From the sequence record NZ_CP069608.1: a stretch of 64,000 bases of DNA; one strand, written 5' to 3'. The notes beneath the pieces were generated by a model, which saw nothing but the letters and a program-made list of their open reading frames with translations, did no database searches and was not told where the DNA came from. The DNA comes from a plasmid. Both the position numbers and the translations under genes were made by a program. Below, in pieces: positions 17,215 to 30,423 of this stretch (position 1 is its first letter; each line of letters begins with the position of its first letter).

Positions 17215-17434
17215 TACAATTGAAGAAAATTACAATAAATATAATGAAAAAACGATTCCCTAAATATATTAATGAAAGAATAGTTCACATAGCAGAAACT
17301 TACTAACCCAAACAAAAAACAAGTCCTTGGAGACAAGGACTTGTTTACTTTACAATCTTTATAAGAATAAATAGCTTAGGATCAAGGATAAAGAATGCAA
17401 GCCCTAGGTAATAATTGATACCTAGGGCTTTATT

Positions 17435-19024
17435 CTATTCAGGTTTATTGTTTGCATTCGGAGCTGGTGTGAAAGAAGGTTTAAAATTCTTGTATTTTAC
17501 TTCTGTAACCATTCCAGCAGAAGCATGATGTAAATCATGACAGTGAAACATCCAGTTTCCAGGATTGTCAGCCTTGAATGCTACAACGTATTCTTCACCT
17601 GGTTTAACATTTAGTGTATCTTTCATTAGTGGTGAACCTTCTATTGTCTTTCCGTTTTTACTCAACACTTGAAAGAAATGTCCATGTAAATGCATTGGAT
17701 GATCAGCTGATTTAGATGTGTTTTTCAACGTTACTTTAACTAAATCACCTTCTTTTACATTTAAAGGTTCAGTATTAGGATAGGTTCTATTGTTAATCGT
17801 ATAAACCATGCTATTATCTTTCATGGCTGTACCAAGATTCATTTTATATTCAACATCATATTTACTATCAAGAGAAAATTCACTTTTTGTAGTTTTACCA
17901 TATTTAGTGATATCTACATTTGGTAAAGATTCTTCTGGATTTAGTTTATCATTATCTTTCTTTGAGTTATCATAAACGATTTTAGCAACCATATTTTTAG
18001 CAGCATCGGTATCATCATGAGATTCAATATATGATGTACCAGGGTTATTAGCTTTGAATACTAAATCGTATCGTTCACCTGGAGAAACTGTCACCGTTTG
18101 ATCTTTTATAGTAGCAGGATTATTGATTGGTTGCCCATCTGTTGAGAGAATTTTAAATTCATATCCATGTAGGTGTATCTTATGAGAGATATATCCTGCA
18201 TTGACTAAGCGAATTTTTACTGTATCTCCTTCAGTAACTTTTAGGGTTTCCATATTATTTTCACTTTTTCCATTAATGGTATAAAGATCATACATACTCA
18301 TATCATCTTGCATATCCATATTCATATTCATTCCATCCATGCTTTCGGTTGAGTTATCTGTATCATTCTTATTTTCTTCACTTGTCATGGATCCATGGTC
18401 CATACCTTCCATGCTACTCTCACCAGACGAAATCCATTCATCTAAAACAAGTGTATAATCTTTATCTACTTTTTCTTCATTTTTTCCTTCTATAATCAGC
18501 GTTCCATATAAACCTTTGTCTATTTGATTGACGCTATCCTGATGTGAATGATACCAATATGTTCCCGGAACAGAAGCTGTAAATTCATAAGTGAATGTTT
18601 TACCTGGCTGTACAGCATTCATAGTGACTCCAGGAATCCCATCTTGACTATTTGGAACAGGAAGTCCATGCCAGTGGATTGTTACAGGTTCAGATAATTC
18701 ATTTTTTAAGTTGATTTTAACCTTATCTCCTTGTTTGACTCGAATTTGGGATCCAGGGACAGAACCATCATATGTCCAAACAGGTAATTTCGTTCCATTC
18801 CTAAAATCATGTGTAGCTTCTTTAGCAGTTAGAGTGAATTCCTTTCCTATCTTTACTTGTGTTGTTCGAGTAGAAGGGAATTTTTCTTTTTTACTTTGTT
18901 CTCCCTTGTTTGTATTATCCATGTCAGACATATCATGCCCTTTCATACTGTCTTCACTATTAGAGCAAGCAACTCCAGTCACAACTAACAATACTAAAAT
19001 TAAAGTAAGACATAACTTTTTCAC
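17435..19024 (-). CDS. Multicopper oxidase lipoprotein (copper-resistance CopA/CueO/PcoA type) with a Met-rich insert
   Basis: Lipoprotein signal LVVTGVAC; HWHG, HSH, HPMHLHGH and HCHDLHH copper-site motifs; MDGMNMNMDMQDDMSMYD Met-rich segment. Confidence 0.85.
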   Translation of the reverse strand: MKKLCLTLILVLLVVTGVACSNSEDSMKGHDMSDMDNTNKGEQSKKEKFPSTRTTQVKIGKEFTLTAKEATHDFRNGTKLPVWTYDGSVPGSQIRVKQGDKVKINLKNELSEPVTIHWHGLPVPNSQDGIPGVTMNAVQPGKTFTYEFTASVPGTYWYHSHQDSVNQIDKGLYGTLIIEGKNEEKVDKDYTLVLDEWISSGESSMEGMDHGSMTSEENKNDTDNSTESMDGMNMNMDMQDDMSMYDLYTINGKSENNMETLKVTEGDTVKIRLVNAGYISHKIHLHGYEFKILSTDGQPINNPATIKDQTVTVSPGERYDLVFKANNPGTSYIESHDDTDAAKNMVAKIVYDNSKKDNDKLNPEESLPNVDITKYGKTTKSEFSLDSKYDVEYKMNLGTAMKDNSMVYTINNRTYPNTEPLNVKEGDLVKVTLKNTSKSADHPMHLHGHFFQVLSKNGKTIEGSPLMKDTLNVKPGEEYVVAFKADNPGNWMFHCHDLHHASAGMVTEVKYKNFKPSFTPAPNANNKPE

Positions 19025-19219
19025 TACAGCACCCCCATATTAATTTAAATATGTCTACAATGTAATTTATAATTGTGCAGAATGTTTGCAGATACTGTAA
19101 ATAATTAATGGCTTACGAAATTTGTCTAAAGATAATTTTGAATTATTACCCAATCTGCACACTTTCTTCACATATTTTTTCTAAAATTTGTTGAAGGCTA
19201 AGTTAAAGGACGTGAAAAC

Positions 19220-20596
19220 ATGAATAGACTCTCATTAAAACTTGGCTTATTGTTTTTAGCTTTCATTCTATTGATTGAGGTTGGCTTATTTTTTTATCTA
19301 TATACTGGGCTAGCTGGCACGAGAATTTCAGAGGAATTAGAAAGTTTAAGACTACGAGGGAACAGTCATCGTGAGGTATTAGAGAAACACCATGATTCTG
19401 CTACCCTAAGCCATGTCGCTTTGATGGAATCAGAGGCAGAGACAGATGTAATTATTACAGATGAAGATGGAAAGATTGTACGGACTTCTAGTCCTTTAGT
19501 AAAAGGAGCTAGAGAAGCTGTAGAACAATGGCAAGGCTATTCTCTTAGGTATAAAGGGGAAATTATGCAAGGGGATTGGAAAAACAAACCCTATATTGCG
19601 ACTGCCTCTCCCATTAGACTAAACCAAAAAAACGCCGGAACTGTGTACATGTTTGAAAATACTAAAGATATACAAGACATGATAGCTAGGCTTCAACACC
19701 ATTTTTATATAGTTGGAGTTATTTCAGTGTTATTTTCAATTATCACTGTTTTTGCGCTTTCTAAATTTATAACACTCCCTCTTATAAGAATGAAACAAGC
19801 AACTCAAAAGCTTAGTCAAGGAGATTTTTCTGTAAAGCTGGGTGCACATTCAAGAGATGAATTGGGCCAGTTAGGAACATCTATTCAAACCCTTGCTAAT
19901 GAACTACATCGTTTAAAGGAAGAACGTAACGAATTTTTAAGTAGCATATCACATGAACTACAAACCCCCCTTATGTACTTAAAAGGGTATGCCGATGTAG
20001 CTAAACGCCAATCAAACAGTGAAGTGGAAAGAAATAAATACCTTAATATCATTGAAGAAGAGGCACAAAGGTTATCTCAACTAGTTAAAGATCTATTTCA
20101 ACTTGCTCAACTTGATCAACATACATTTTTAATTCAAAAACAGAATGTCAAATTATATTCCTATTTACATCATATAATTCAGCATTTTGATTTGGTCTTA
20201 AAAGAAAAGGATATTCAACTGCATTTAAATTGCCCACAAGAAATTGAGGTGAATATTGACCCTGAAAGATTCCAGCAAGTTGTTGTTAACTTGTTAGATA
20301 ATGCATTGAAGTATTCTGACAATGGAACCGAAATTTTAATAATAGTGCGAGAACTACCTAAAAAAGTTACGATTACCTTTAAAGATCAAGGAATAGGAAT
20401 TCCTTCGACCGATCTTCCTTATGTCTTTGATAAATTGTATAGAGTAGAAAAATCGCGCTCAAGGAAAAGTGGAGGTTATGGTTTAGGATTATCTATTGTA
20501 AAAGAAATTGTGGAATCTCATGGAGGCGCAGTCACAATAGAAAGTGGGGTAGGAAAAGGCACTATGGTTGAAATCTTGTTAAGAGAGGATGTTTAG
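19220..20596 (+). CDS. Two-component sensor histidine kinase (2 TM, HAMP, HisKA SHELQTPL, HATPase)
   Basis: 458 aa; domain order read from motifs; divergent from the multicopper oxidase. Confidence 0.85.
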   Translation: MNRLSLKLGLLFLAFILLIEVGLFFYLYTGLAGTRISEELESLRLRGNSHREVLEKHHDSATLSHVALMESEAETDVIITDEDGKIVRTSSPLVKGAREAVEQWQGYSLRYKGEIMQGDWKNKPYIATASPIRLNQKNAGTVYMFENTKDIQDMIARLQHHFYIVGVISVLFSIITVFALSKFITLPLIRMKQATQKLSQGDFSVKLGAHSRDELGQLGTSIQTLANELHRLKEERNEFLSSISHELQTPLMYLKGYADVAKRQSNSEVERNKYLNIIEEEAQRLSQLVKDLFQLAQLDQHTFLIQKQNVKLYSYLHHIIQHFDLVLKEKDIQLHLNCPQEIEVNIDPERFQQVVVNLLDNALKYSDNGTEILIIVRELPKKVTITFKDQGIGIPSTDLPYVFDKLYRVEKSRSRKSGGYGLGLSIVKEIVESHGGAVTIESGVGKGTMVEILLREDV

Positions 20597-21278
20597 AATG
20601 CCAACTATTTTGTTAGTTGATGATGAATCAAGGATGTTAGATCTACTTGAACTTTATCTTACTCCAAATGGTTTTATATGTATTAAATTTGATTCTGGTA
20701 TTGAGGCATTAAACTATCTAGAAGAAGGAAATGAAGCTGATTTAATGCTCTTGGATATTATGATGCCCGATAAAGATGGATGGGAGATATGTCATGAAGT
20801 TAGAAGTAGTTCCAAAATTCCAGTAATAATGCTAACCGCACGTAATCAAACCATTGATATAATAAAGGGTTTGAATACAGGAGCTGATGATTATATCGTT
20901 AAACCCTTTAGTGAAGGAGAACTGATTGCTCGCCTTAGAGCAGTATTAAGGAGAGTTTCAACAGAAAATGAGGAGATTAACTATAAAGGATTATTATGGA
21001 GTCGAGAAAATCACCTGTTAAAATATGAAGATCAGGAAATACAAGTGACTCCAAAAGAATTTAAATTAGTAGGATTGCTCTTACAATACCCAAATAGAGT
21101 GTTTAGTCGTGAAGATTTATTAACCTCAGTATGGGGATACGATGCTGAAATTGAAGGAAGAACAATTGATTCACATGTGCGAAATGTAAGAGATAAACTA
21201 CGTAAAGCAAACTTTCCTGTAGATGACCACCTTCAAACTGTGTGGGGGCTAGGCTATAAATGGGTAGACAGCAATTAA
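20589..21278 (+). CDS. OmpR-family response regulator (receiver + winged helix)
   Basis: 229 aa; LLVDDE receiver start; overlaps the kinase stop. Confidence 0.9.
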   Translation: MFRMPTILLVDDESRMLDLLELYLTPNGFICIKFDSGIEALNYLEEGNEADLMLLDIMMPDKDGWEICHEVRSSSKIPVIMLTARNQTIDIIKGLNTGADDYIVKPFSEGELIARLRAVLRRVSTENEEINYKGLLWSRENHLLKYEDQEIQVTPKEFKLVGLLLQYPNRVFSREDLLTSVWGYDAEIEGRTIDSHVRNVRDKLRKANFPVDDHLQTVWGLGYKWVDSN

Positions 21279-21826
21279 AGCAAGTTGTTGTTGAGTGGTT
21301 ATCTACCAATGAACTTATAGCCATATTAATTAGTCTATCCCTTAACATTGTCATAAGTATTTTAGGCATTGTACCTAGTGTATTTCTTACAGCTGCAAAC
21401 TTGAAAATATTTGGTTTTTGGGAAGGGACTATCATTTCATTTTTAGGAGAAGTTATAGGAACAAGTGTATCTTTTTGGTTATATAAAAAGGGATTTAAAT
21501 CAGTTTTAAGAAACAAGACGCAGAATCAACCTAAACTAGATAAACTCTTATCAACTACAGGAAAAGATGCTTTTTCTCTAGTTATAGGCCTGCGCTTATT
21601 ACCTTTTACACCTTCTGGATTGGTTACATTCCTTGCTGCTGTTGGAAATATGAGCTTTTCAATATTTTTCTTAGCCAGTACATTAGGAAAAATCCCTGCC
21701 ATAGTCTTAGAATCCTATTCAACATATCAAGTGGTGAACTTAACGTTAGAAGGAAAAGTAATTTTAGCAGGGTTAGCGTTGATTTTAATTCTTTATGCCG
21801 TAAGGCGTAAAAAAACGAACAAATAA
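21260..21826 (+). CDS. DedA/TVP38/TMEM64 family membrane protein, overlapping the response regulator stop
   Basis: 188 aa; SNARE-associated-like signature FGFWEGTIISFLGEVIGTSVSFWLYKKG. Confidence 0.65.
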   Translation: MGRQQLKQVVVEWLSTNELIAILISLSLNIVISILGIVPSVFLTAANLKIFGFWEGTIISFLGEVIGTSVSFWLYKKGFKSVLRNKTQNQPKLDKLLSTTGKDAFSLVIGLRLLPFTPSGLVTFLAAVGNMSFSIFFLASTLGKIPAIVLESYSTYQVVNLTLEGKVILAGLALILILYAVRRKKTNK

Positions 21827-21940
21827 AATATTATTGCTCCCTAGTCTAACAGAATAACTCTCACAATCTTTTTTGCTTATTGCAAGGGTATTCATTAATT
21901 TTTTTTAAAAAAGGGCATTTAACCCTTCGCATAGGGTACA

Positions 21941-21962
21941 GGGGTACCGTATAATATAATTA
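21941..21962. promoter_or_regulatory. Putative CsoR operator: GC-rich pseudo-palindrome ATAGGGTACAGGGGTACCGTAT abutting a tataat -10
   Basis: ATAccc..ggggTAT-type dyad directly upstream of csoR. Confidence 0.4.
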
Positions 21963-21979
21963 TGAAAGGAGGAAATTAA

Positions 21980-22312
21980 ATGGATGAATTAGAAAAAATC
22001 ACTGACAATGATAGTTGTTGTTCTATAAATAATGAACGTAGAAGTCATCACTCTCCAGAAGTGAAGAAAAACCTAACTAGTAGATTGAATCGCATAGAAG
22101 GACAAATTCGAGGGATTAAAGGATTAATTGAGAAAGATACTTATTGTGACGATATAATTACTCAAATTGCAGCCGTACAATCTGCTTTAAACGGTGTAAG
22201 TAAGATATTACTTGAAGGACACCTTAAACATTGTATAGTTGAGCGTGTTCAAGAAGGAGATAAAGAAGTAGTAGATGAATTATTGACAACAATTAAACGA
22301 CTAATGAAATAA
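21980..22312 (+). CDS. csoR: CsoR family copper-sensing transcriptional repressor
   Basis: 110 aa; LNRIEGQIRGI...YCDDI...HLKHC (C-H-C copper ligands). Confidence 0.85.
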   Translation: MDELEKITDNDSCCSINNERRSHHSPEVKKNLTSRLNRIEGQIRGIKGLIEKDTYCDDIITQIAAVQSALNGVSKILLEGHLKHCIVERVQEGDKEVVDELLTTIKRLMK

Positions 22313-22320
22313 AAAAGGAG

Positions 22321-22536
22321 ATGTTAAGAATGGAAAAAGTAACGTTAACAGTTAAAGGAATGTCTTGTGGTCATTGTGTGAAATCTATTGAAGGAAGTGT
22401 TGGTGAACTTAACGGTGTACAACATGTAGAGGTAAATCTAAATGAAGCAAAGGTGTCCGTTGAATTTGATCAAAACAAAGTATCGTTAGAATCAATTAAA
22501 GAAGATATTGATGACCAAGGTTATGAAGTAGCCTAA
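22321..22536 (+). CDS. copZ: Copper chaperone CopZ (HMA domain)
   Basis: 71 aa; GMSCGHCV metal-binding motif. Confidence 0.9.
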   Translation: MLRMEKVTLTVKGMSCGHCVKSIEGSVGELNGVQHVEVNLNEAKVSVEFDQNKVSLESIKEDIDDQGYEVA

Positions 22537-22617
22537 ATAAAATAGCGTGCGAATACTTCCGCACGCTTCCTTTAGGAATTGAATATACCTAATAGGGGTA
22601 TAATAGGAGGTTATAAA

Positions 22618-25035
22618 ATGAGCGAACAGCAAAAAGAAACCACTTTACAAATTAGTGGCATGACCTGTGCAGCTTGTGCAAACCGTATCGAAAAAGGATT
22701 AAAGAAAATTGATGGTGTTCAGGATGCTAACGTAAATTTTGCATTAGAAAGATCAACCATTGTTTATGATCCATCAAAAACAACTACTCAAGATTTTGAA
22801 CAAAAAATTCAAAAATTAGGTTATGACATTGTAAATGAAAAAGATGAATTTAGTATTACAGGCATGACTTGCGCAGCTTGTGCAAACCGAATTGAAAAAG
22901 GCTTGAATAAATTAGAGGGAGTCTCAAAGGCCACAGTCAATTTCGCATTAGAAACAGCAACAGTAGAATATACCCCCTCCCAGGTAAGCACAACAGAAAT
23001 GATTCAGCGAGTAGAAAAACTGGGATATGGAGCTATATTAAAGTCAGAAGAAAAAGAAGAAAATCTTAATCATCGAGAGAAAGAAATTGAAAAACAAAAA
23101 GGGAAGTTTTGGTTTTCACTTATTCTAAGTTTCCCTCTGTTATGGGCAATGGTTAGTCACTTTTCATTTACTTCGTTTATTCCACTACCCGCCATGTTAA
23201 TGAACCCATGGGTTCAATTAACTCTAGCAACTCCAGTACAGTTTATTGTAGGTAAACAATTTTACGTAGGTGCTTTCAAAGCACTCCGTAATAAAAGCGC
23301 AAATATGGATGTTCTCGTCGCCCTGGGAACCAGTGCAGCATATTTCTATAGTTTATATGTTTCAATTAAATCAATAGGCTCAAACGCTCCTATGATTGAA
23401 CTATATTATGAAACAAGTGCCGTATTACTCACACTTATTATATTAGGTAAATTATTTGAAGCAAATGCTAAGGGACGTTCTTCTGAGGCTATCAAAAAAC
23501 TTATGGGTTTACAGGCAAAAACAGCAACTGTTTTACGAAATGGTGAGGAAGTTGAGATTCCCATTGAAGAAGTACAATCAGGAGATATTGTTTATGTAAA
23601 ACCTGGTGAAAAGGTACCTGTGGATGGGGAAATTGTAGAAGGTCAATCAGCCTTAGATGAATCCATGTTAACAGGAGAAAGTGTTCCAGTAGACAAAACC
23701 ATTGGAGATGCAGTCATTGGAGCAACAATCAATAAAAATGGATTTTTAAAAGTAAAAGCGACAAAAGTCGGAAGAGACACAGCTTTAGCACAAATTATTA
23801 AAGTAGTGGAAGAAGCTCAGGGTTCAAAAGCACCTATTCAACGATTAGCTGACCAAATTTCCGGCATATTTGTTCCAATTGTAGTTGGTATTGCAATTGT
23901 AACCTTTTTAATTTGGTATATCTGGGTTCAACCAGGTGATTTTGCTTTAGCACTAGAAAAATTAATTGCCGTATTAGTAATTGCTTGTCCATGTGCATTA
24001 GGGTTAGCAACTCCAACTTCTATTATGGCAGGATCAGGTCGTGCAGCAGAGTTTGGTATTTTATTTAAAGGTGGAGAACACTTAGAAACTACTCATAAAA
24101 TCAATACCATTATCTTAGATAAAACAGGTACAGTCACAAACGGTACTCCTGAATTGACCGACGTATTTGTATCAAGTGGAATTGAAAATCAGGAGTTTTT
24201 AGAGTTAGTAGGTTCAGCTGAACGACAGTCTGAGCACCCTCTTGCTCAAGCAATTGTTGAAGGCATAAAGGTAAAAGGAATTAAGCTTGTTAGTCCTTCA
24301 TCGTTTGAAGCTATTCCTGGTTTTGGGATTAAAGCTGTTGTAAATGAGAAAGAGTTATTAGTTGGAACACGTAAATTAATGAACCAGAATAATATCCAAA
24401 TTGATAATGATTTAAAAAAAATGATTGAGTTAGAACGTGAAGGAAAAACAGCCATGCTGGTTGCTATTAATGGTCAATACGCAGGATTAATTGCTGTAGC
24501 TGATACCATCAAAGAAACTTCGAAAGAAGCTGTCACTCGATTAAAAGAGATGGGTTTAGAAGTCATTATGATTACGGGTGATAATAAGCAAACTGCCCAA
24601 GCAATTGCTCAGCAAGTAGGTATTGAACATGTCATTGCTGAGGTATTGCCTGAAGGAAAAGCTGAGGAAGTGAAAAAACTCCAACATCAAGGTAAAAAAG
24701 TAGCGATGGTTGGAGACGGCATTAATGATGCACCTGCTTTAGCATTAGCTGATATCGGAATGGCCATTGGTACCGGTACAGATGTGGCGATGGAGGCTGC
24801 TGATATTACCTTAATGCGTGGTGATTTAAACAGTATTGCTGATGCGATCTTTATGAGTAAAAAGACAATCCAAAATATTAAACAAAATTTATTTTGGGCA
24901 TTTGGGTATAACACACTAGGTATACCGATTGCTGCGATTGGTTTATTAGCTCCTTGGTTAGCAGGCGCAGCAATGGCCTTTAGTTCTGTTTCTGTCGTTC
25001 TGAATGCACTAAGATTGCAAAGAGTGAAATTATAA
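22618..25035 (+). CDS. copA: Copper-translocating P1B-type ATPase CopA
   Basis: Two N-terminal [18 protein letters not shown] domains; CPC, DKTGT and GDGINDAP motifs. Start taken at MSEQQ with a ggagg RBS (the ORF track starts at 22579). Confidence 0.95.
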
Positions 25036-25049
25036 AGGAGTGTAAGGAA

Positions 25050-25214
25050 ATGAAAAAATGGATTGTTTCAGCTGTTTTATATCTCCTTATTGTTATAGCT
25101 GCTTATGCTATTTGGGCGAGTTTCAATGAGAGTCCAAAGAATGAACACCAAAATCATCAATCGATCTCTTATCCTACGCCGATTGAAAAAAGTTATAACA
25201 TTAGGGTGCGATAG
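25050..25214 (+). CDS. 54 aa single-TM protein immediately after copA (not in the ORF track)
   Basis: ATG with aaaggagtgtaagg RBS; MKKWIVSAVLYLLIVIAAYAIWASF... Confidence 0.35.
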   Translation: MKKWIVSAVLYLLIVIAAYAIWASFNESPKNEHQNHQSISYPTPIEKSYNIRVR

Positions 25215-25216
25215 AG

Positions 25217-25546
25217 ATGGATATGCAGGGAGTACAAAAACATGTGTTAATCTGTAATGGAAAAAGCTGCGTCAAGAATGGTGGAGAACAAGTCGCAGAA
25301 GCGATTCGTGATGAGATAAAGAAAAGTGGTTGTACTAAATTTATTCATACAACTAAGACGTTATGTAACGGTCAGTGTAAAAATGGAGCTATTACAATTC
25401 TGTATCCTGATGGTATCTGGTATAAAGAAATGGACGAAGACTCTGGAAGGAAGCTTATTAAAGAGATAAACACTCCCATTCCTTTAGAGCAAAAGATCCT
25501 ATTGGACTATAAAAACCACCAATTTACTGAAAAGAAAACAGAATAG
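25217..25546 (+). CDS. Thioredoxin-like [2Fe-2S] ferredoxin family protein
   Basis: 109 aa with four spaced Cys (CNGKSC...C...CNGQC). Confidence 0.5.
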   Translation: MDMQGVQKHVLICNGKSCVKNGGEQVAEAIRDEIKKSGCTKFIHTTKTLCNGQCKNGAITILYPDGIWYKEMDEDSGRKLIKEINTPIPLEQKILLDYKNHQFTEKKTE

Positions 25547-25874
25547 CAAAAAGAGTTTAGCTTTTCTTTAGCTAAACTCTTTTTCTATACAGCTAAGGTA
25601 ACAAATTTTCACGAAAAAAGGAAGTCTAACAGAATAATCTAATTATCTTCAAACTTTCTCTACAGTTTCATGGTTTAAATATTAAGATTATCGTTCTTTT
25701 ATTATGTTTCTAAAATTATTAGGTCATTCTATAAGGTGAAATTATTTAATTCTCACTAAAACTGCACAAAAACTGCACAAAATTTATTTATGCTAAAGAA
25801 ATAAAGTAATAGGAAAGTTTCTCATTTATACCATTGTTTTATTAAAGAGCGAATTCTATTGCTCAGAAAGAGGG

Positions 25875-26447
25875 ATGAAAATGAAAAAACAACTTTTTAT
25901 TCTTGGAGTAGCAACAATTATAGGGCTGAGTGGTTGTGGAAATAATTCCAGCAATGATGATCAATCAAGTAATAAAAAGGAGTCAAATCAATCAGAGATG
26001 GATCACTCCAAGATGAATCATTCCGGTTCAAGCGAGGTTCCTGAAGGTTTACAAGAAGCGAAGAACCCAACATATAAGTTGGGAAGCGAAGCAACTATTA
26101 AAGCAGATCACATGAAAGGTATGAACGGTGCTAAAGCGACAATTGTTGGGGCTTATGATACTACAGTTTATACAGTTTCTTATACACCAACTACTGGTGG
26201 AGAAAAAGTAGCAAATCATAAATGGGTCATTCAAGAAGAAATTAAGGACGCTGATGATAAAACGTTAAAGCCAGGAACTGAAGTTACTCTAGAAGCAGAT
26301 CACATGGAAGGTATGAAAGGCGCAAAAGCAACAATTGACTCAGCTGAAAAAACTACTGTATATATGGTTGATTACACACCAACTACTGGTGGAGAAAAGG
26401 TAACAAATCATAAATGGGTTACAGAAAATGAACTTTCTGCTAAATAA
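25875..26447 (+). CDS. Lipoprotein with two DUF1541 (YdhK-like) domains
   Basis: Lipobox LSGC; internal duplication DHMKGMNGAKATIVGAYDTTVYTVSYTPTTGGEKVANHKWV / DHMEGMKGAKATIDSAEKTTVYMVDYTPTTGGEKVTNHKWV. Confidence 0.75.
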   Translation: MKMKKQLFILGVATIIGLSGCGNNSSNDDQSSNKKESNQSEMDHSKMNHSGSSEVPEGLQEAKNPTYKLGSEATIKADHMKGMNGAKATIVGAYDTTVYTVSYTPTTGGEKVANHKWVIQEEIKDADDKTLKPGTEVTLEADHMEGMKGAKATIDSAEKTTVYMVDYTPTTGGEKVTNHKWVTENELSAK

Positions 26448-26613
26448 AGCAAGCCTAGAGATTATTCAATAATGCAATTAAAATATATTACGTAGGTAAT
26501 ACCTCTGAAACATATAGATTTCAGAGGTATTCTTTTCACCCTATATATTTTTAATTTAAAAATAAAAGGAGGAATAGCCATTTGCCATTTCTCCCTTTAT
26601 AGGTAGCAATTTT

Positions 26614-26943
26614 TTAAGATGCTAATTTCCTACATTCTTCTGCGCATTTCAAACAAGCATCTGCGCACTTTTGACAGTGTTCATGGTCATGTTTTTTACA
26701 CACGTTTCCACATGCTTCACAAATTTGAGCGCATGCCTGAGCTAATTCAGAGACAAAGGGTGTTCCTCTCCCTAAAGCTTGTTCCAAATACGCACAAATA
26801 TCTGCGCACTCACGGTCAAGGCGAATACATTCAACCATCATATTTACATTTTCTTCTTTTAAACATGCATCATAACAATGATTACATGCAGTCATACATT
26901 CATGTAACGTTTGAATAACAAATTGATAGTTTTCATGTGACAA
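26614..26943 (-). CDS. Cys-rich four-helix-bundle copper-binding protein (DUF326, Csp3-like copper storage protein)
   Basis: 109 aa, ~18 Cys in CxxxC heptad-like spacing. Confidence 0.7.
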   Translation of the reverse strand: MSHENYQFVIQTLHECMTACNHCYDACLKEENVNMMVECIRLDRECADICAYLEQALGRGTPFVSELAQACAQICEACGNVCKKHDHEHCQKCADACLKCAEECRKLAS

Positions 26944-27067
26944 GTTAAAATTCCTCCTCTAAATTTGCGTTCTCTCTATTACAATAGACTAACATTCGGT
27001 TTATTAAACATAATAAGATATATTGTTATATCTTTTACATATTCATAAAATCTCATAGGGAGGTTAT

Positions 27068-27430
27068 TTAGCTGACACTTGCCATAACACGGCATTCTCT
27101 GGCACAGTCTAAACACATTTGAGCACACATCTGTGATTGTTGATCAGAAAACCTTGAACATTCATAGGCACATGCCTTACAAGTATAAGCACAGAATTTG
27201 CAAGCGTTTCTCATAGACTTGCTGTTGCGCGATACTAATTGCGTACATAATATACAAATATCACAACAATCTCTAAGTAATTGGATTTGTTGAACTCTGG
27301 CATGTACATCAGGACTATGCAGAGAGAAATTTATTGTTTGTTCACACATTATCACGCAGTCTTGAAGTATTTTCATCATATTTTGAAACATATTTACATC
27401 CATCATGCTTTTTCCCCCTATTTGGTTCAT
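27068..27430 (-). CDS. Second DUF326/Csp-like Cys-rich four-helix-bundle protein (tandem paralog)
   Basis: 120 aa, Cys-rich with the same CxxxC periodicity. Confidence 0.65.
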   Translation of the reverse strand: MNQIGGKSMMDVNMFQNMMKILQDCVIMCEQTINFSLHSPDVHARVQQIQLLRDCCDICILCTQLVSRNSKSMRNACKFCAYTCKACAYECSRFSDQQSQMCAQMCLDCARECRVMASVS

Positions 27431-27669
27431 TTAACACGATATTTTATGTAGATACTCTTCTCCATAGAATCCTATCAAAACGTTAGAGGGTCTAAAATTT
27501 GTTCTTCACCAAACCACGGAGGTAAAAACTCTAACAAAACAACCAATATACAAGCAATTTTCTGGTCAACTTAATCCCTTCTCTTCGAAATGTTGTTTCA
27601 CATCTAAGTTTGTTTCTTTTATACTTTAAAACATAGAGATATGTAAATTGAAGGCGGTGAAAGTAACAT

Positions 27670-28074
27670 ATGAGTGAAAACCATAATGAATTACTATCAA
27701 ATATCTTAGGACCTCTTGAATTAGAAGTAATGAAAGTTCTTTGGTCTAAGAAAGAAGCAACTGTTCAGGAAGTATTAGCAGATTTAAATAAACAAAATGA
27801 GTATGCTTACACCACAATCATGACGATTATGAATCGTTTAGATAAAAAGAGAATTCTTACACGTAATAAGGTAGGAAAGGGATATCAATATAAAGCTCGT
27901 TATAATCAGGATGAGCTTGTTCAACATACTTCATCTAAGAAGGTCGAACAACTTCTTGGAAACTATGGTGATGTTGCTATTGCACAGTTTGTCGATGCTG
28001 TTGGCCATAATCCAGATCAGCTAAATAAATTGAAACAACTTATTCAAAATTTAGAGAATGGGGAAGAATCGTGA
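27670..28074 (+). CDS. BlaI/MecI/CopY family transcriptional repressor
   Basis: 134 aa; penicillinase-repressor winged helix LGPLELEVMKVLWSKKEATVQEVLADL...YTTIMTIMNRLDKK. Confidence 0.85.
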   Translation: MSENHNELLSNILGPLELEVMKVLWSKKEATVQEVLADLNKQNEYAYTTIMTIMNRLDKKRILTRNKVGKGYQYKARYNQDELVQHTSSKKVEQLLGNYGDVAIAQFVDAVGHNPDQLNKLKQLIQNLENGEES

Positions 28075-28928
28075 TGCAATTATCTCGTCAGTATAGCATT
28101 TACATTGCATTTCTAGTTAGTATTACAGGTTCCTTTTCTCTCTGTTTTTTCGCCTATCACCATAAAGGGGAAAGTTTTTGGGATGGTATGCTTATGTGTT
28201 GTAATAGTCATTCGTGGGAACAAGTATTCAAGGTATTGGTTATCTTACTAGCGGTCTTATGTATATTATTTATCGTTTATTTTGTGGGAATTGTTCAAAA
28301 GACAAAACAATTTCTTTCTACCCTAATCCCTTATAAAGTGAGAGGATTTTTTTCTCAAGAGATAGAAACATTTCAAAAAAAATATTCAATACAAATTCAT
28401 ATTATCAATGATAAACGACCTATAGCTTTTACCTATGGGTTTGTTTTTCCTCAAATTATTATAAGTACAGGGCTCCTTCAATTGTTAGATTCAGATGAGA
28501 TAGAAGCTGTTTTAGAACATGAATATTGTCACTATAAAAATAAGGATCCTTTTAAATTGTCATTATATAAATGTTTAGCACGCCTATTCTTTTTCTTGCC
28601 CATAACTGAAAAAATATTGAAACGCTATGTCACTCAAAAAGAATTAGCTGCAGATGCTTTTGCAATTGAACAAGTTGGGCTAAAACCAGTTGCTTCAGCT
28701 CTATATAAATTAATGACATATTCTTCACCTCTATCTTTCTCAATAGCTCATTTTCAAAATAATGATCTCAAAGATGTTCGTATTGAATTTCTTTTGACAG
28801 GTACACATACCAGGGCTTCTCTGAGCAAAAAAGAATGGACAGTCTCGGTTCTACATCTTATTTTTATTACGCTGATAGCAGGATGTGTGTCATATTTGTG
28901 GCAAAATATATCTTCTATGATTTTATAA
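28071..28928 (+). CDS. BlaR1/MecR1-like M56 family membrane metalloprotease lacking the C-terminal penicillin-binding sensor domain
   Basis: 285 aa; TM segments; HEYCHY zinc site (HExxH); start overlaps the blaI-like stop; Cys/His-rich N-terminal region (CFFAYHH, MCCNSHS). Confidence 0.75.
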   Translation: MMQLSRQYSIYIAFLVSITGSFSLCFFAYHHKGESFWDGMLMCCNSHSWEQVFKVLVILLAVLCILFIVYFVGIVQKTKQFLSTLIPYKVRGFFSQEIETFQKKYSIQIHIINDKRPIAFTYGFVFPQIIISTGLLQLLDSDEIEAVLEHEYCHYKNKDPFKLSLYKCLARLFFFLPITEKILKRYVTQKELAADAFAIEQVGLKPVASALYKLMTYSSPLSFSIAHFQNNDLKDVRIEFLLTGTHTRASLSKKEWTVSVLHLIFITLIAGCVSYLWQNISSMIL

Positions 28929-28995
28929 TTACTACATAATTGTAGTAATGCATTGACTCCACTTTCACCATCTACTACAATTGTGTAGTAGATGG
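28929..28995. promoter_or_regulatory. Two perfect dyads carrying the BlaI/MecI/CopY-type TACA/TGTA core: TTACTACAtaatTGTAGTAA (28929-28948) and CCATCTACTACAattgTGTAGTAGATGG (28968-28995)
   Basis: Read directly; 50-120 nt upstream of the Met/Cys-repeat peptide gene. Confidence 0.6.
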
Positions 28996-29045
28996 TGTGT
29001 TCTATAGACTCCATCTCTATTCCATGTAAGAAGGAGAGGAAAAAC

Positions 29046-29285
29046 ATGAAAATAAAAAAAACAGTTGCGGGTTTATCCTTTGTTGCCCTAATGGCAGTTG
29101 GAGGAACAGTTTTTGCAGCTAGTCCAGCAGATCATAAACCTATGAGTGAAAAAGATTGTATGGAAATGAGTAAGAAAGACTGTATGAAGATGATGAAAAA
29201 TATGAGTGAAGAGGATTGTATGGAAATGATGAAAGGCATGAGTAAAAAAGATTGTATGAAAATGATGAAAGAGATGAAAAAATAA
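29046..29285 (+). CDS. Secreted 79 aa peptide with a signal peptide and four tandem KDCM(K/E)MMK Met/Cys-rich repeats (putative metal-binding)
   Basis: RBS aaggagagg; MKIKKTVAGLSFVALMAVGGTVFAASPADH followed by repeats. Confidence 0.6.
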   Translation: MKIKKTVAGLSFVALMAVGGTVFAASPADHKPMSEKDCMEMSKKDCMKMMKNMSEEDCMEMMKGMSKKDCMKMMKEMKK

Positions 29286-29339
29286 AGCTTTAGTGTAAGA
29301 AACCTATTATATCTAATATTAAAGTTATCATACTACTAA

Positions 29340-29378
29340 TCTAAGACAAGAGAGCCAACTTTTAATGTTGGCTTTTTT
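29340..29378 (+). terminator. Rho-independent terminator (agccaac..gttggct + T-run)
   Basis: Hairpin and T-tract directly after the peptide gene. Confidence 0.6.
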
Positions 29379-29675
29379 ATTTCATGTTAAATAACTTCCA
29401 ATGGCGAAATTTCAACCATATTGAGAGGCTTTTTAATACTGTCTTGGTGTCATTTAATGATACTTTATCGAACATGGTTAGCATATGGATCATATACTTC
29501 TGTAAGCAATAAAATACTTACTGATAAAATTATTGTTCCTACTAATAACAACCCATTACTTACAATTTTGTTGTTCTTTTTACCTAAAAAGAGGCCAAAA
29601 GGTTTTATAAACTAATAAGAATACCAGGAATCAAAAAGAAAGGAGCCTGATTATAATGAATTCAGGCTCCTTTAA

Positions 29676-29960
29676 TTAACAACAGCTATTATCCATTCCT
29701 ACTAATACAAAGCCTGACCCCTGAGGACTTTCTTGTACATCAAGCGTAAGACCTTCAGTTGAAGTTAATACTGTGTTTTCAATCGCTACTTGAATACCGT
29801 TGATTTCTTGTACTGTATCATTTTCAGCTGGTACATCTAACGATAAACCTATTTGAGGACCACAACATCCAGCACCTTCAGAATAGAAACGGATACCTTT
29901 TGCACCTTGTTTTGCGAATACGTCATCTAACATTTTTTTTGCTTCATTTGTGATATTCAT
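29676..29960 (-). CDS. HesB/IscA-like Fe-S cluster biosynthesis family small protein, last gene of the ars operon
   Basis: 94 aa; GCCGPQ...SCC Cys pattern. Confidence 0.45.
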   Translation of the reverse strand: MNITNEAKKMLDDVFAKQGAKGIRFYSEGAGCCGPQIGLSLDVPAENDTVQEINGIQVAIENTVLTSTEGLTLDVQESPQGSGFVLVGMDNSCC

Positions 29961-29994
29961 GAAATCTCTCCCTCTCTTTACCTTTGTTTACGGT

Positions 29995-30423
29995 TTAAGC
30001 TTCTGGAAATAGACGTTGAAGTGAAGCTTTCATTTCTGGTTTTACGTTAATTTTAGCACGAGCTGCTTTGGCTTTCTCTTCTGCCTCTGCAATTGTATCT
30101 ACTTCGCCTAGTGCTAGTAGTGTTCCAATTGCAACCGTACCTGTACGATTACTTCCTCCTGCACAATGGAAGTAAATCTTTTTTCCCTCTTCATACGATT
30201 TTACGACTTCATTAATTGCATTTTGAATAGACTCATCTTGGTTTTCTGCATCATCCACAATTGGTGTATGAACGCGTACTTCTGGAGCATCGTGTTCTAA
30301 TGCTTCTGCACGTAAGTCATAAATGACATCTGCTTTATCATTTTCCATCATTTCTTTTACATCGGATGCTCCACCGATGAAAATACGATCGTCAATTAAT
30401 GCTTGATAATTCTTGTTGCTCAT
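29995..30423 (-). CDS. Cys-based protein phosphatase (dual-specificity/PTP-like, HCxxGxxRT loop)
   Basis: 142 aa; HCAGGSNRTG signature. Confidence 0.6.
   Translation of the reverse strand: MSNKNYQALIDDRIFIGGASDVKEMMENDKADVIYDLRAEALEHDAPEVRVHTPIVDDAENQDESIQNAINEVVKSYEEGKKIYFHCAGGSNRTGTVAIGTLLALGEVDTIAEAEEKAKAARAKINVKPEMKASLQRLFPEA

What the first reader, a model, noticed from the sequence alone, without database searches (positions are those of the whole stretch)
27670..29380. Sensor-less BlaI/BlaR1-like pair with tandem TACTACA-N4-TGTAGTA operators upstream of a secreted Met/Cys-repeat peptide
A BlaI/CopY-family repressor gene overlaps the start of an M56 metalloprotease (HEYCH) that lacks the penicillin-binding sensor domain and has a Cys/His-rich N-terminal region. 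Directly after them are two perfect dyads with the BlaI/MecI/CopY half-site core: TTACTACAtaatTGTAGTAA and CCATCTACTACAattgTGTAGTAGATGG. They sit just upstream of a 79 aa signal-peptide protein made of four KDCMxMMK repeats, which is then closed by a terminator. The locus lies between the copper-storage and arsenic genes. Inference: a proteolytic BlaR1/BlaI-type signalling switch, repurposed for a metal cue, controls an extracytoplasmic Met/Cys-rich metal-binding peptide. It may also control the divergent Csp3-like genes. I do not know this arrangement as described.
Basis: partly seen in the sequence, partly recalled or inferred. Interest (0 to 1): 0.8.

Follow-up and report, generated by a model that had tools for sequence, protein, structure and literature searches.

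The report
BlaI/BlaR-type switch controlling secreted sulfur-rich peptide
A conserved three-gene module of soil bacilli pairs a repressor and a membrane protease of the penicillin-sensing family (but without the penicillin sensor) with a tightly repressed gene for a secreted peptide that is one-third methionine and cysteine. It sits almost always among copper genes, so it is most likely an outside-the-cell copper alarm and copper sponge, and nobody has tested it.

Summary
Window 27670-29378 encodes a Cys-free BlaI-family repressor, an overlapping 284/285-aa M56 protease with no penicillin-binding domain, and two exact ACTACA-N4-TGTAGT inverted repeats 43 bp apart. These repeats bracket a near-consensus sigma-A promoter (TTGACT-17-TACAAT, with the -10 inside the second dyad). 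A 79-aa signal-peptide protein made of DCMxMMK repeats follows, then a terminator.

The same trio, with the same dyads, spacing and promoter, recurs in 13 other independent Bacillaceae loci. Copper-specific genes lie within 7 kb in 12 of the 14 contexts. None has a beta-lactamase or PBP.

A CC motif in the predicted outward loop of the protease is invariant or nearly so. It occupies the position of BlaR1 loop L2 and of the Met loop of the cyanobacterial copper sensor PetP.

Best reading: constitutive sensor and repressor. Cu(I) or Ag(I) at the CC loop activates cleavage of the repressor, and the extracytoplasmic Met/Cys peptide is derepressed.

The principle is not new. PetR/PetP senses copper, CenIR has the same gene order, and only about 6% of M56 proteins carry a beta-lactam sensor. 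The subfamily, its operator (which probably doubles as a terminator) and the peptide family are undescribed. Control of the neighbouring Csp3 genes is not supported. New variant of a known kind; interest 0.55.

The parts
27597..27625 (+). Probable sigma-A promoter of the repressor-protease operon (TTCACA-17-TATACT). It carries no ACTAC/GTAGT dyad.
   Evidence: Consensus scan, 10 of 12 matches. The same TTCACA-17-TATACT is conserved upstream of blaI in 8 homologous loci. No dyad lies upstream of blaI in any locus.
27670..28074 (+). BlaI/MecI-family winged-helix repressor, 134 aa, with no cysteine. Q106-F107 aligns with the N101-F102 cleavage site of S. aureus BlaI.
   Evidence: Pfam PF03965, E = 6.7e-29. 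Best solved relatives are M. tuberculosis BlaI 2g9w, then MecI and BlaI, with 'AIAQFVDAVG' aligned to 'LVLNFAKNE'. It scores below the NCBIfam CopY_TcrY cut-off.
28074..28928 (+). Sensor-less M56 (BlaR1-type) membrane zinc protease. It is 284 aa from ATG 28074, or 285 aa from GTG 28071. The start overlaps the repressor stop (TGATG).
   Evidence: PF05569 53 bits and PF01435. Best sequence and fold matches in the PDB are the S. aureus BlaR1 cryo-EM structures 8exp and 8exs. H150, E151, H154 and E191 are invariant. The AF2 model has pLDDT 76.
28155..28220 (+). Codons for the loop between hydrophobic helices 1 and 2 (HHKGESFWDGMLMCCNSHSWEQ). This is the candidate extracytoplasmic sensor, with CC at residues 43-44.
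   Evidence: C43 is invariant and C44 is conserved in at least 90% of 20 homologues. The following helix aligns to BlaR1 TM3, which makes this loop the equivalent of BlaR1 L2 and of the PetP Met loop. CC sits at the same place in 7 of the 11 closest cluster representatives. The outward orientation is inferred from the positive-inside rule and the need for a cytoplasmic protease domain.
28518..28532 (+). HEYCH zinc-binding and catalytic motif of the protease.
   Evidence: Read from the sequence. H, E and H are invariant, while the Cys is Tyr in most homologues.
28928..28949 (.). Distal operator (dyad 1), ATTACTACA-taat-TGTAGTAAT, just upstream of the -35 box.
   Evidence: Exact match. Present at the same distance from dyad 2 in 8 loci found by the pattern scan and also read in L157 and L155. 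L001 has a symmetric change, TACTACG/CGTAGTA. It is degenerate in L019 and absent in L026.
28953..28981 (+). Promoter of the peptide gene: -35 TTGACT (28953-28958), 17-nt spacer, -10 TACAAT (28976-28981). The -10 lies inside the left arm of dyad 2.
   Evidence: Scan, 10 of 12 matches. TTGAC and ACAAT are conserved in the alignment of 10 loci, except in L026, which lacks this -35. The same design is seen in Thermoactinomyces and another Peribacillus system.
28966..28997 (.). Proximal operator (dyad 2), CCATCTACTACA-attg-TGTAGTAGATGG. It covers the -10 box and the expected transcription start, and probably also acts as the intrinsic terminator of the repressor-protease transcript.
   Evidence: The 8-bp core is invariant in 10 loci, and the 28-bp element is identical in L001, L002 and L005. 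The outer arms covary: 6 pairs changed on both sides, covariation score reached by 0 of 500 shuffles, with some G-U type pairs. The RNA hairpin has dG -22 to -31 kcal/mol. The scan flags it as terminator-like.
29046..29285 (+). Gene for the 79-aa secreted peptide: a signal peptide plus four (K/E)DCMxMMK units. The mature part is 55 aa with 15 Met and 4 Cys.
   Evidence: ORF and RBS. 36-nt tandem repeat. Composition. The family has 27 members, all in Bacillaceae, all unnamed and without a Pfam domain, ranging from 66 to about 170 aa through repeat number. The AF2 model has low confidence and shows short helices.
29348..29378 (+). Intrinsic terminator that closes the peptide gene.
   Evidence: 12-bp stem followed by a T-run. 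Comparable hairpins follow the peptide gene in L001 and L002.

Best explanation
This is a self-contained three-gene module that senses a soft metal, most likely Cu(I) (possibly also Ag(I)), outside the cytoplasm and responds to it.

1. The repressor and the protease are made from their own unregulated promoter. The long hairpin of dyad 2 stops that transcript before it reaches the peptide gene.
2. Without signal, dimers of the BlaI-like repressor sit on two ACTACA-N4-TGTAGT operators four helical turns apart. One abuts the -35 box. The other covers the -10 box and the start site of a strong sigma-A promoter. The peptide gene is therefore silent.
3. Metal binding to the outward-facing loop of the M56 protease (the invariant CC motif plus neighbouring Met and His) activates the cytoplasmic zinc-protease domain.
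4. The protease cuts the repressor in its dimerisation region, near Q106/F107. The operators are freed.
5. The peptide is made, exported by Sec and released into the wall zone. Its DCMxMM units bind the metal. This protects the membrane and envelope, or hands copper to envelope cuproproteins. It also lowers the signal at the sensor, giving negative feedback.

Shown here: the gene families, the missing sensor domain, the operators and their conservation, the promoter overlap, the conserved CC loop, and the copper neighbourhood.

Inferred: repressor binding, proteolysis, loop topology, the identity of the cue, and metal binding by the peptide.
For: - Families and missing sensor domain.
- Conserved trio: found in 14 independent contexts (window, L001-L005, L019, L022, L024, L026, L033, L155-L157), always in the order repressor, overlapping protease, peptide.
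- Dyads: exactly 43 bp apart in all 8 loci where the pattern scan found both. The pair is also read in L157 and L155, where dyad 1 is slightly degenerate.
- Operator cores and promoter: invariant 8-bp cores and conserved TTGAC-17-TACAAT, while flanking DNA and the protease itself have diverged to about 45% protein identity.
- Repressor: the recognition helix is co-conserved and the Phe of the cleavage site is kept. The protein has no Cys, so it cannot sense metal the way CopY does.
- Sensor loop: CC is invariant or nearly so, in the loop equivalent to BlaR1 L2 and the PetP Met loop.
- Copper link: copper-specific genes (CsoR, CopZ, CopA, Csp, CopL/YdhK, SCO1, CueP, cupredoxin, CopCD, multicopper oxidase) lie within 7 kb in 12 of 14 contexts. 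CueP, SCO1 or a cupredoxin is the very next gene in 5 of them.
- Distant peptide relatives: Cys-richer relatives sit in CsoR-CopA-CopZ or Csp loci.
- Precedent: copper-dependent degradation of a BlaI-family repressor by a sensor-less M56 protease, PetR/PetP.
Against: - No experiment of any kind exists for this subfamily.
- Arsenic-resistance operons and ArsR-type regulators paired with P-type ATPases are also frequent neighbours, and 2 of 14 contexts lack a clear copper gene. Co-location in metal islands does not fix the metal.
- The CC motif is shared by related short M56 proteases whose outputs are different or unknown. It could be a general structural or signalling feature rather than a metal site.
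- The loop is modelled with low confidence, and its orientation is inferred.
- The peptide model is poor.
- The genome already has CsoR and a two-component system in the same island, so a further copper sensor is not strictly needed.
Confidence: 0.55

Rival explanations
1. The switch and output are as described, but the cue and ligand are another thiophilic metal or metalloid (Cd, Zn, Pb, Hg or As(III)) rather than copper or silver.
For: ars operons are directly adjacent in the window, L002, L003 and L026. ArsR-family regulators paired with P-type ATPases only 33-36% identical to the window CopA (possibly CadC/CadA-like) flank the trio in L001, L019, L024 and L026.
Against: The genes immediately downstream, on the same strand, are copper proteins (CueP, SCO1, cupredoxin) in five loci. 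L155 has CueP as its only metal gene nearby. Met-rich motifs with single Cys residues are typical of Cu(I)/Ag(I) sites, whereas As(III), Cd and Hg sites rely on clustered thiolates (general coordination chemistry, my own knowledge).
Confidence: 0.15
2. The cue is oxidative, electrophilic or reactive-sulfur or reactive-chlorine stress. It is sensed by oxidation of the CC pair. The Met/Cys peptide is a sacrificial extracellular scavenger rather than a metal binder.
For: A vicinal CC pair and a protein that is 35% Met plus Cys would both react readily with HOCl or peroxide. Cysteine dioxygenase, thioredoxin and SCO1/thiol-disulfide genes occur next to some trios. The CC motif is shared by relatives with non-metal outputs, such as one followed by a 169-aa multi-pass membrane protein that I judged DoxX-like by eye.
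Against: The dominant and recurrent neighbours are metal transport and copper-binding genes, not Msr, peroxidase or other oxidative-stress genes. Copper itself causes thiol oxidation, so this rival partly merges with the main explanation.
Confidence: 0.12
3. The pair answers an unknown envelope signal, as proposed for CenIR. The peptide has a non-metal role (signalling, antimicrobial, or wall-associated), and the metal neighbourhood is only island hitch-hiking.
For: CenIR has the same architecture, with an exported protein of unknown function and no known signal. Most sensor-less M56 systems have no assigned cue.
Against: The peptide's composition is extreme and repeat-based, with conserved D-C-M-x-M-M spacing. 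It has no partner modification or immunity genes. Linkage to copper genes persists in chromosomal, non-island contexts such as L155.
Confidence: 0.1
4. The dyads are only transcription terminators or chance palindromes, not protein-binding sites, and the peptide gene is not under the repressor's control.
For: Dyad 2 is scored as terminator-like, and its outer arms covary in the manner of an RNA stem.
Against: A pure hairpin would tolerate compensatory change throughout, yet the 8-bp core ACTAC(A)/GTAGT never varies. The same core recurs in dyad 1, which has no T-tract. The 43-bp spacing is fixed and the -10 box is embedded in dyad 2. Related BlaI/M56 systems carry the same half-sites on their promoters.
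Confidence: 0.04
5. It is an ordinary beta-lactam resistance regulator (BlaI/BlaR1 or MecI/MecR1).
For: Family membership of both proteins.
Against: There is no transpeptidase or sensor domain. NCBIfam BlaR1 and BlaI models score far below their cut-offs. No beta-lactamase or PBP gene lies next to any of the 14 trios.
Confidence: 0.01

Closest known systems
PetR/PetP of Synechocystis and other cyanobacteria (copper-dependent cytochrome c6/plastocyanin switch)
   Same: A BlaI/CopY-family regulator without the CopY Cys motif. An overlapping gene for an M48/M56 membrane protease that lacks the beta-lactam sensor. Soft ligands in the short outward loop before the last N-terminal helix. The Phe of the BlaI cleavage site is kept. 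Copper-dependent proteolysis of the regulator has been shown for PetRP.
   Different: PetP is predicted to have 3+1 membrane helices and two conserved Met; here there are 2+1 helices and a CC pair with Met and His. The PetR core site is GACN5GTC; here it is ACTACA-N4-TGTAGT. PetR both represses and activates electron-carrier genes elsewhere in the genome; here a single adjacent gene for a secreted Met/Cys peptide is the apparent target. The phylum differs, and orthology was not tested.
BlaI/BlaR1 and MecI/MecR1 (staphylococci, Bacillus licheniformis)
   Same: The protein families, the gene pairing, the HExxH plus Glu zinc site, and repressor cleavage in the dimerisation domain as the presumed mechanism. 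Two operators, one at the -35 box and one at the -10 box and start site.
   Different: No extracellular penicillin-binding domain. One fewer N-terminal helix. No beta-lactamase or PBP2a target. The operator half-sites are 4 rather than 2 nt apart. The operators are not at the pair's own promoter, so the pair is apparently not autoregulated.
CenIR of Clostridioides difficile (PMC13492132)
   Same: The gene order: blaI-like, then blaR-like without a transpeptidase domain, then a gene for a small exported protein that is by far the most strongly derepressed target.
   Different: CenR has a short unstructured C-terminal tail and no reported CC loop. Its exported target has no Met/Cys repeats. Its signal is unknown and is thought to relate to the envelope. 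It is essential in C. difficile.
CopY/CopR/TcrY copper repressors of lactic acid bacteria
   Same: The same winged-helix family, TACA/TGTA half-site cores, a pair of operators, and a copper response.
   Different: CopY senses Cu(I)/Zn(II) itself through a C-terminal CxCx4CxC motif and needs no protease. The repressor here has no cysteine at all and scores 64.7 against a cut-off of 121.95 for the CopY_TcrY model. The box spacing differs.
M. tuberculosis BlaI/BlaR (Rv1846c/Rv1845c)
   Same: Rv1846c is the closest solved structure to the repressor (2g9w). It is paired with a sensor-less BlaR. ACTAC/GTAGT-like half-sites occur upstream of actinobacterial blaI genes.
   Different: In the actinobacterial loci examined here the operators lie upstream of blaI itself, whereas here they lie only downstream of the protease gene. 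No secreted Met/Cys peptide was seen in those loci.
Extracytoplasmic Met-rich copper/silver binders (PcoE/SilE, CusF, CopC, Ctr1 'Mets' motifs) and Cys-lined copper storage proteins (Csp1/Csp3)
   Same: Short Met-rich motifs (MxM, MxxM) used for Cu(I)/Ag(I) outside the cytoplasm. Induction by metal. Location in copper islands. This comparison rests on my own knowledge, except that the Csp neighbours were verified.
   Different: No sequence relationship was detected: the peptide has no Pfam or NCBIfam hit. The peptide combines one Cys with three Met per unit, varies by repeat number, and occurs in a Gram-positive organism, where exported proteins usually avoid Cys.

Membership tests
BlaI/MecI/CopY repressors (Pfam Penicillinase_R, PF03965) | N-terminal winged-helix domain plus C-terminal helical dimerisation domain that matches the family model above its threshold | tested here: met
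   101 bits against a cut-off of 22.6, covering residues 13-126. PDB relatives are 2g9w, 1okr and 1sd4.
BlaI/MecI/CopY repressors (Pfam Penicillinase_R, PF03965) | Operator TACANNTGTA (extended form RNYKACANNTGTMRNY) | tested here: not met
   The cores are TACA-N4-TGTA. The only TACANNTGTA in the window is at 30731, inside the arsA gene. The consensus is taken from PMC7253601.
BlaI/MecI (protease-inactivated repressors) | Conserved Asn-Phe cleavage site in the dimerisation domain | tested here: inconclusive
   The Phe is conserved, but the preceding residue is Gln (A-Q-F-V; T-Q-F-V in homologues). Cleavage itself cannot be tested here.
CopY/TcrY copper repressors (TIGR02698) | C-terminal CxCx4CxC (or CxC) metal site, and a score above the equivalog cut-off | tested here: not met
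   The 134-residue protein has no cysteine. It scores 64.7 bits against a cut-off of 121.95.
Peptidase M56 (BlaR1-type membrane zinc proteases, PF05569) | M56 domain with HExxH and a downstream Glu ligand, flanked by membrane helices | tested here: met
   53 bits against a cut-off of 31. H150, E151, H154 and E191 are invariant. The top PDB sequence and fold hits are BlaR1 8exp and 8exs.
BlaR1/MecR1 beta-lactam sensor-transducers (NF000326, NF033108, NF033109) | C-terminal extracellular penicillin-binding (transpeptidase-like) sensor domain | tested here: not met
   The protein is 284/285 aa and ends just after its last helix. It has no PF00905 hit. It scores 30.7 against 400, and 24.9 against 1200.
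BlaR1/MecR1 beta-lactam sensor-transducers (NF000326, NF033108, NF033109) | Genetic linkage to a beta-lactamase or a low-affinity PBP | tested here: not met
   Neither is present in any of the 14 contexts.
PetR/PetP-type copper-responsive proteolytic switch | A Cys-free BlaI-family regulator with an overlapping gene for a sensor-less M48/M56 protease | tested here: met
   The TGATG overlap is read. The comparison is.
PetR/PetP-type copper-responsive proteolytic switch | Conserved soft ligands (two Met) in the outward loop before the helix that leads into the protease domain | tested here: inconclusive
   The equivalent loop carries a conserved CC plus Met and His, not the two-Met pattern. Equivalence of position is inferred through the BlaR1 alignment. 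No PetP sequence was aligned.
PetR/PetP-type copper-responsive proteolytic switch | Core binding site GACN5GTC | tested here: not met
   The operators here are ACTACA-N4-TGTAGT.
PetR/PetP-type copper-responsive proteolytic switch | Copper-dependent, protease-dependent degradation of the regulator | not testable with these tools
   This needs immunoblots or in-vitro proteolysis. Only genomic linkage to copper genes is available.
Known metal-binding peptide or protein families (metallothioneins, Csp/DUF326, PcoE/SilE, CopZ/HMA) | A match of the 79-aa peptide to a family model | tested here: not met
   There are no significant Pfam or NCBIfam hits. The only hits are a weak signal-peptide-like match to DUF6488 (E = 0.007) and one to an SbtA RiPP leader (E = 0.016). 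All 27 relatives are unnamed.

The most novel reading that the evidence does not exclude
The short M56 protease is a direct membrane-surface Cu(I)/Ag(I) receptor that works through its vicinal-cysteine loop. If so, it would be the first BlaR-type extracytoplasmic metal sensor in Firmicutes. Its sole output would be a new class of repeat-expandable secreted Met/Cys 'exo-metallothionein' that buffers copper in the Gram-positive wall zone and feeds back on the sensor. The proximal operator would be a three-in-one element: repressor site, -10 box, and terminator of the sensor operon.
Probability: 0.4. Interest if true: 0.7.

Novelty: new variant of a known kind. Interest (0 to 1): 0.55.

Why it matters
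How sensor-less BlaR-type proteases perceive their signals is an open question. They are the large majority of the family (about 94% by the count in PMC13492132). For PetP the copper site is only guessed at, and for CenR the signal is unknown.

This subfamily is unusually tractable:
- It has a single adjacent target gene.
- It has a strong, cleanly repressed promoter that could serve as a reporter.
- It has an invariant two-cysteine candidate ligand site.
- It occurs in hosts that can be manipulated genetically (Priestia megaterium, the Bacillus cereus group).

The peptide would also be a new kind of extracellular copper or silver binder in Gram-positive bacteria. Envelope copper handling in these organisms is poorly understood. 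The repeat number varies naturally from 3 to about 14 units, which could interest work on metal capture. If the cue turns out not to be a metal, the module still gives a clean model for signal perception through the L2-equivalent loop.

Tried and rejected
- A single-protein scan of genome contigs found no relatives. The alignment-based repeat gave only 16 loci, 5 of them close. Most contexts therefore came from exact-protein look-ups.
- The AF2 model of the peptide is low confidence (pLDDT 55) and I used it only to note short helices. The AF2 model of the protease is poor exactly in the sensor loop, so it gives no structural argument about the CC site.
- The metagenome scan for TACTACAN4TGTAGTA returned more than 120 hits, but only two carry BlaI/M56 relatives. 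It was not useful for defining a regulon.
- Literature searches for the peptide motif and for BlaI/M56 with copper in Bacillus found nothing on this subfamily. One search failed on syntax.
- Considered and rejected: autoregulation of the pair, since no dyad lies upstream of blaI in any locus.
- Considered and rejected: control of the Csp3 genes, since no site is present and the linkage is not conserved.
- Considered and rejected: a RiPP precursor or bacteriocin. The only hit is a weak signal-peptide-like match, there are no modification or immunity genes nearby, and the peptide has a Sec signal peptide.
- Considered and rejected: a CopY-type direct metal sensor, since the repressor has no Cys.
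- Considered and rejected: a beta-lactam system.
- The Cys within HEYCH was considered as a special feature and dropped because it is not conserved.

Full report
**What is in the window.** The sequence and the ORF list show three genes on the + strand. The first, 27670-28074, encodes a 134-aa protein that matches Pfam Penicillinase_R at E = 6.7e-29. The second is listed from GTG 28071. Its start is more likely ATG 28074, which overlaps the repressor stop as TGATG and fits the 284-aa homologue P0001. It ends at 28928. It matches Peptidase_M56 (53 bits, cut-off 31) and Peptidase_M48. HEYCH lies at 28518-28532. No further domain is present, and the protein ends a few residues after its last hydrophobic helix. 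NCBIfam models for true BlaR1/MecR1, BlaI/MecI and CopY/TcrY are all hit far below their cut-offs. The third gene, 29046-29285, encodes a 79-aa protein with a Sec-type signal peptide (judged by eye) and four DCMxM motifs. The mature 55 residues contain 15 Met, 4 Cys and 13 Lys. The gene is built from a 36-nt tandem repeat and is followed by a terminator at 29348-29378.

**The two dyads.** Dyad 1 lies at 28928-28949 and dyad 2 at 28968-28995. Both are exact inverted repeats around 4-nt spacers, and their centres are 43 bp apart. They are the only matches to TACTACAN4TGTAGTA in the window, even with two mismatches allowed.

**Surroundings.** Upstream lies a large copper island. It contains Nramp, a multicopper oxidase, a histidine kinase and response regulator, a DedA-like protein, CsoR, CopZ, a CPC-type CopA, a thioredoxin-like 2Fe-2S protein, a YdhK/CopL-like lipoprotein and two Csp3-like DUF326 proteins. 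Downstream, on the opposite strand, is an ars operon. The closest relatives of the protease are from Priestia megaterium at 94% identity.

**Promoter and operator anatomy.** Between the dyads sits TTGACT (28953-28958), a 17-nt spacer and TACAAT (28976-28981), a 10-of-12 match to the sigma-70-type consensus. The -10 hexamer lies inside the left arm of dyad 2, so the expected start site falls in its right arm. Dyad 1 ends 4 nt before the -35 box. This two-operator layout, one at the -35 box and one over the -10 box and start site, is the one discussed for CopY and BlaI. The TACA/TGTA cores are 4 nt apart, however, not 2 as in the classical TACANNTGTA box. The repressor-protease pair has its own promoter-like site, TTCACA-17-TATACT at 27597-27625, with no dyad near it.

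**Comparative evidence.** The trio recurs with the same order and overlap in these places:
- Plasmids of Bacillus sp. HNR-4 and Peribacillus asahii.
- Ectobacillus funiculus, a Bacillota MAG and Bacillus rhizoplanae.
- The B. cereus group, where one protein variant is indexed in 98 blocks of the collection.
- A 5.8-Mb complete chromosome (CP080375.1; the protein is named from Peribacillus and Brevibacillus sources), Metabacillus idriensis and B. pseudomycoides.
- Cytobacillus firmus and three further assemblies.

In all eight loci where the pattern scan found both dyads, they are exactly 43 bp apart. The pair is also read in L157 and L155. In an alignment of ten intergenic regions, the cores CTACTACAAT and GTAGTAG are invariant and TTGAC nearly so. 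By contrast, the proteases are only about 45% identical to the window protein. The 28-bp dyad 2 is identical in three such loci. Dyad 1 is more variable and shows a symmetric change in L001 (TACTACG/CGTAGTA). It is degenerate in the B. cereus locus and missing in B. pseudomycoides. In the repressors extracted from 12 loci, the segment YAYTTIMT[IV]MNRL is constant, in step with the invariant half-site. No locus has a dyad upstream of blaI. Eight of them share the TTCACA-17-TATACT promoter. The pair therefore looks constitutive, and the peptide gene looks like the regulated target.

**A second role for dyad 2.** In the homologues the inverted repeat extends to 16-17 bp arms. The outer positions covary, for example CCATC/GATGG changing to CCACC/GGTGG or CAACC/GGTTG. 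Six of 16 pairs change on both sides, and 0 of 500 shuffles reach the observed covariation score. Several T-G combinations are tolerated only on the + strand. As RNA, the element folds at -22 to -31 kcal/mol with z-scores of -4 to -10. It is followed by a short T-rich stretch, and the scan calls it terminator-like. My inference is that the same element insulates the peptide gene from read-through of the constitutive sensor operon and also serves as the proximal operator. The invariant core argues that it is not merely a hairpin.

**The protease as sensor.** The best sequence and fold matches among solved structures are the S. aureus BlaR1 cryo-EM structures. Residues 48-207 align with BlaR1 98-258. 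The second hydrophobic helix here therefore corresponds to BlaR1 TM3, and the preceding loop (residues 29-50) corresponds to BlaR1 loop L2. In the literature, L2 is the extracellular loop that contacts the sensor domain, and its equivalent in PetP carries the two conserved Met proposed as copper ligands. The charge distribution supports an outward loop: Lys and Arg follow helix 2, while the loop is net acidic. So does the need for a cytoplasmic protease domain. This orientation remains an inference. In 20 homologues, C43 is invariant and C44 is conserved in at least 90%, with His and Met around them. An exhaustive search of 1.84 billion cluster representatives found 5,497 relatives at E <= 0.001 but only 7 at E <= 1e-30. 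A CC dipeptide sits at the equivalent place in 7 of the 11 closest representatives. It is also present in a Thermoactinomyces homologue and in a high-GC metagenomic homologue. The CC pair is thus a hallmark of a wider clade of short M56 proteases. That supports a role in signalling but weakens the argument that it is specific for metal.

**The repressor.** It has no cysteine, so it cannot act like CopY. Its closest solved relative is M. tuberculosis BlaI. The Phe of the BlaI N101-F102 cleavage site is conserved, as Q-F. The PetR paper reports the same conservation for PetR.

**Which cue.** Copper-specific genes lie within 7 kb of the trio in 12 of 14 independent contexts. They include CsoR-CopZ-CopA, Csp, YdhK/CopL, SCO1, CueP, a cupredoxin, CopC-CopD and a CopZ-like protein. 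The next gene on the same strand is CueP (two loci), SCO1 (two loci) or a cupredoxin (one locus). One of these loci, L155, is otherwise an ordinary chromosomal neighbourhood. Distant, Cys-richer relatives of the peptide lie in CsoR-CopA-CopZ and Csp/cupredoxin loci without a BlaI/M56 pair. Arsenic operons and ArsR-type regulators paired with P-type ATPases are also frequent neighbours. Another thiophilic metal therefore cannot be excluded. No beta-lactamase or PBP gene is present in any context.

**The peptide family.** Only 27 cluster representatives were found in 5.8 billion sequences. All are from Bacillaceae, all are unnamed, and none has a Pfam domain. Length varies from 66 to about 170 aa through the number of repeat units. 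B. rhizoplanae, for instance, has a 51-nt unit in 6.9 copies. Structure prediction gives only short low-confidence helices. Exported proteins of Firmicutes generally avoid cysteine (my own knowledge), which makes the peptide unusual.

**Relation to what is known.** A sensor-less BlaI/BlaR pair that responds to copper is published as PetR/PetP. That work reports overlapping genes, copper- and PetP-dependent degradation of PetR, and conserved Met in the TM2-TM3 loop. CenIR of C. difficile has the same gene order, with a downstream exported protein as its dominant target. The CenIR paper also reports that proteins with an M56 domain and no recognisable C-terminal domain are the most common architecture, and that true beta-lactam sensors are about 6% of the family. 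Related Bacillales systems use the same design of a -10 box embedded in an ACTAC/GTAGT dyad with other outputs. In Thermoactinomyces the dyad precedes an operon made of a wall-binding lipoprotein with a His/Met-rich tail, then blaI and M56. In another Peribacillus it lies between M56 and a gene for a 169-aa multi-pass membrane protein that I judged DoxX-like by eye. I found no paper on the Bacillaceae trio or on its peptide.

**Verdict.** The side suggestion about Csp3 is not supported, and the claim of an undescribed arrangement must be narrowed. This is a new variant of a known kind of switch. Its distinguishing features are a distinct candidate ligand loop, a dedicated and novel output peptide, and a compact element that combines operator, promoter and probable terminator. 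I put about 0.8 on the regulatory wiring, about 0.7 on a soft-metal cue of some kind, and about 0.55 on the full copper or silver mechanism as stated.

Noticed in passing
window 15931-27430: A large copper-homeostasis island: Nramp, multicopper oxidase (17435-19024, -), histidine kinase and response regulator (19220-21278), DedA/VTT protein, CsoR (21980-22312), CopZ (22321-22536), CopA (22579-25035), YdhK/CopL-like DUF1541 lipoprotein (25875-26447), and two Csp3-like DUF326 genes (26614-27430, -). One island therefore holds three different candidate copper sensors: CsoR, the two-component system and the BlaI/M56 pair.
   Followed up: partly
window 25217-25546; L022 5804-6136; L156 1880-2215: A 109-aa thioredoxin-like [2Fe-2S] ferredoxin-domain protein follows CopA here. 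It also follows CopA in a Peribacillus-like chromosome (58% identity) and in Bacillus sp. V2I10, in both cases after an unannotated protein of about 290 aa. This is a recurrent and uncharacterised accessory of CopA.
   Followed up: no
window 29676-30423 (-); L002 3827-4553; L026 13595-13876: The ars operon carries a dual-specificity phosphatase-like gene and a 94-aa HesB/IscA-like protein that ends in CC. Both are conserved in the ars operon of Peribacillus asahii, which annotates the small protein as 'adhesin'. The 94-aa gene is also in the B. pseudomycoides operon.
   Followed up: partly
L001 5055-5100, L002, L003 and L004 (upstream of blaI): In the homologous loci, but not in the window, an inverted repeat ATGTGAA...TTCACAT lies just upstream of and across the -35 box of the blaI promoter. 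It may be a site for a different regulator.
   Followed up: no
L006 4038-6636 and L007 (Thermoactinomyces): A related system has a different order: the dyad on the promoter (TTGAAT-17-TACAAT inside ACTACTACAATGATGTAGTA), then a 407-aa lipoprotein with a CWB2 domain and a His/Met-rich C-terminal tail, then blaI, then an M56 with an 'MDHCCD' loop. This version would be autoregulated.
   Followed up: partly
L008 5222-7036 (Peribacillus sp. SI8-4): A BlaI/M56 pair without the CC loop is followed by a dyad (CACTACAC-ttt-GTAGTG) embedded in TTGATT-17-TACACT, and then by a gene for a 169-aa multi-pass membrane protein that I judged DoxX-like by eye. The wiring is the same but the output differs.
   Followed up: no
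L109 279-1611 (metagenome, high GC): A BlaI/M56 pair from a high-GC organism has an 'SLCCQS' loop and a TACTACAN4TGTAGTA site just downstream of the protease gene. This suggests that both the CC loop and the downstream-operator layout predate the Bacillaceae trio.
   Followed up: no
L039 64-321; L074, L123, L131, L146: The metagenome motif scan picked up unrelated repeat families. One contig has four copies of TACTACAATAATGTAGTA at spacings of 96, 48 and 96 bp. A dispersed repeat, AGCTCTACTACATGCGTGTAGTAGGCACG, occurs on several contigs. Their nature is unknown.
   Followed up: no
L001 6497-6556, L002 6619-6680, window 28986-29050: The 5' leader of the peptide mRNA can pair the right arm of dyad 2 (GATGG) with a downstream CCATC. 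In L002 it can also pair UUAUCAUCU with AGAUGAUGG next to the Shine-Dalgarno sequence. The energies are modest (z-scores -1 to -2.6). It could be a 5' stabiliser or a translational element.
   Followed up: partly
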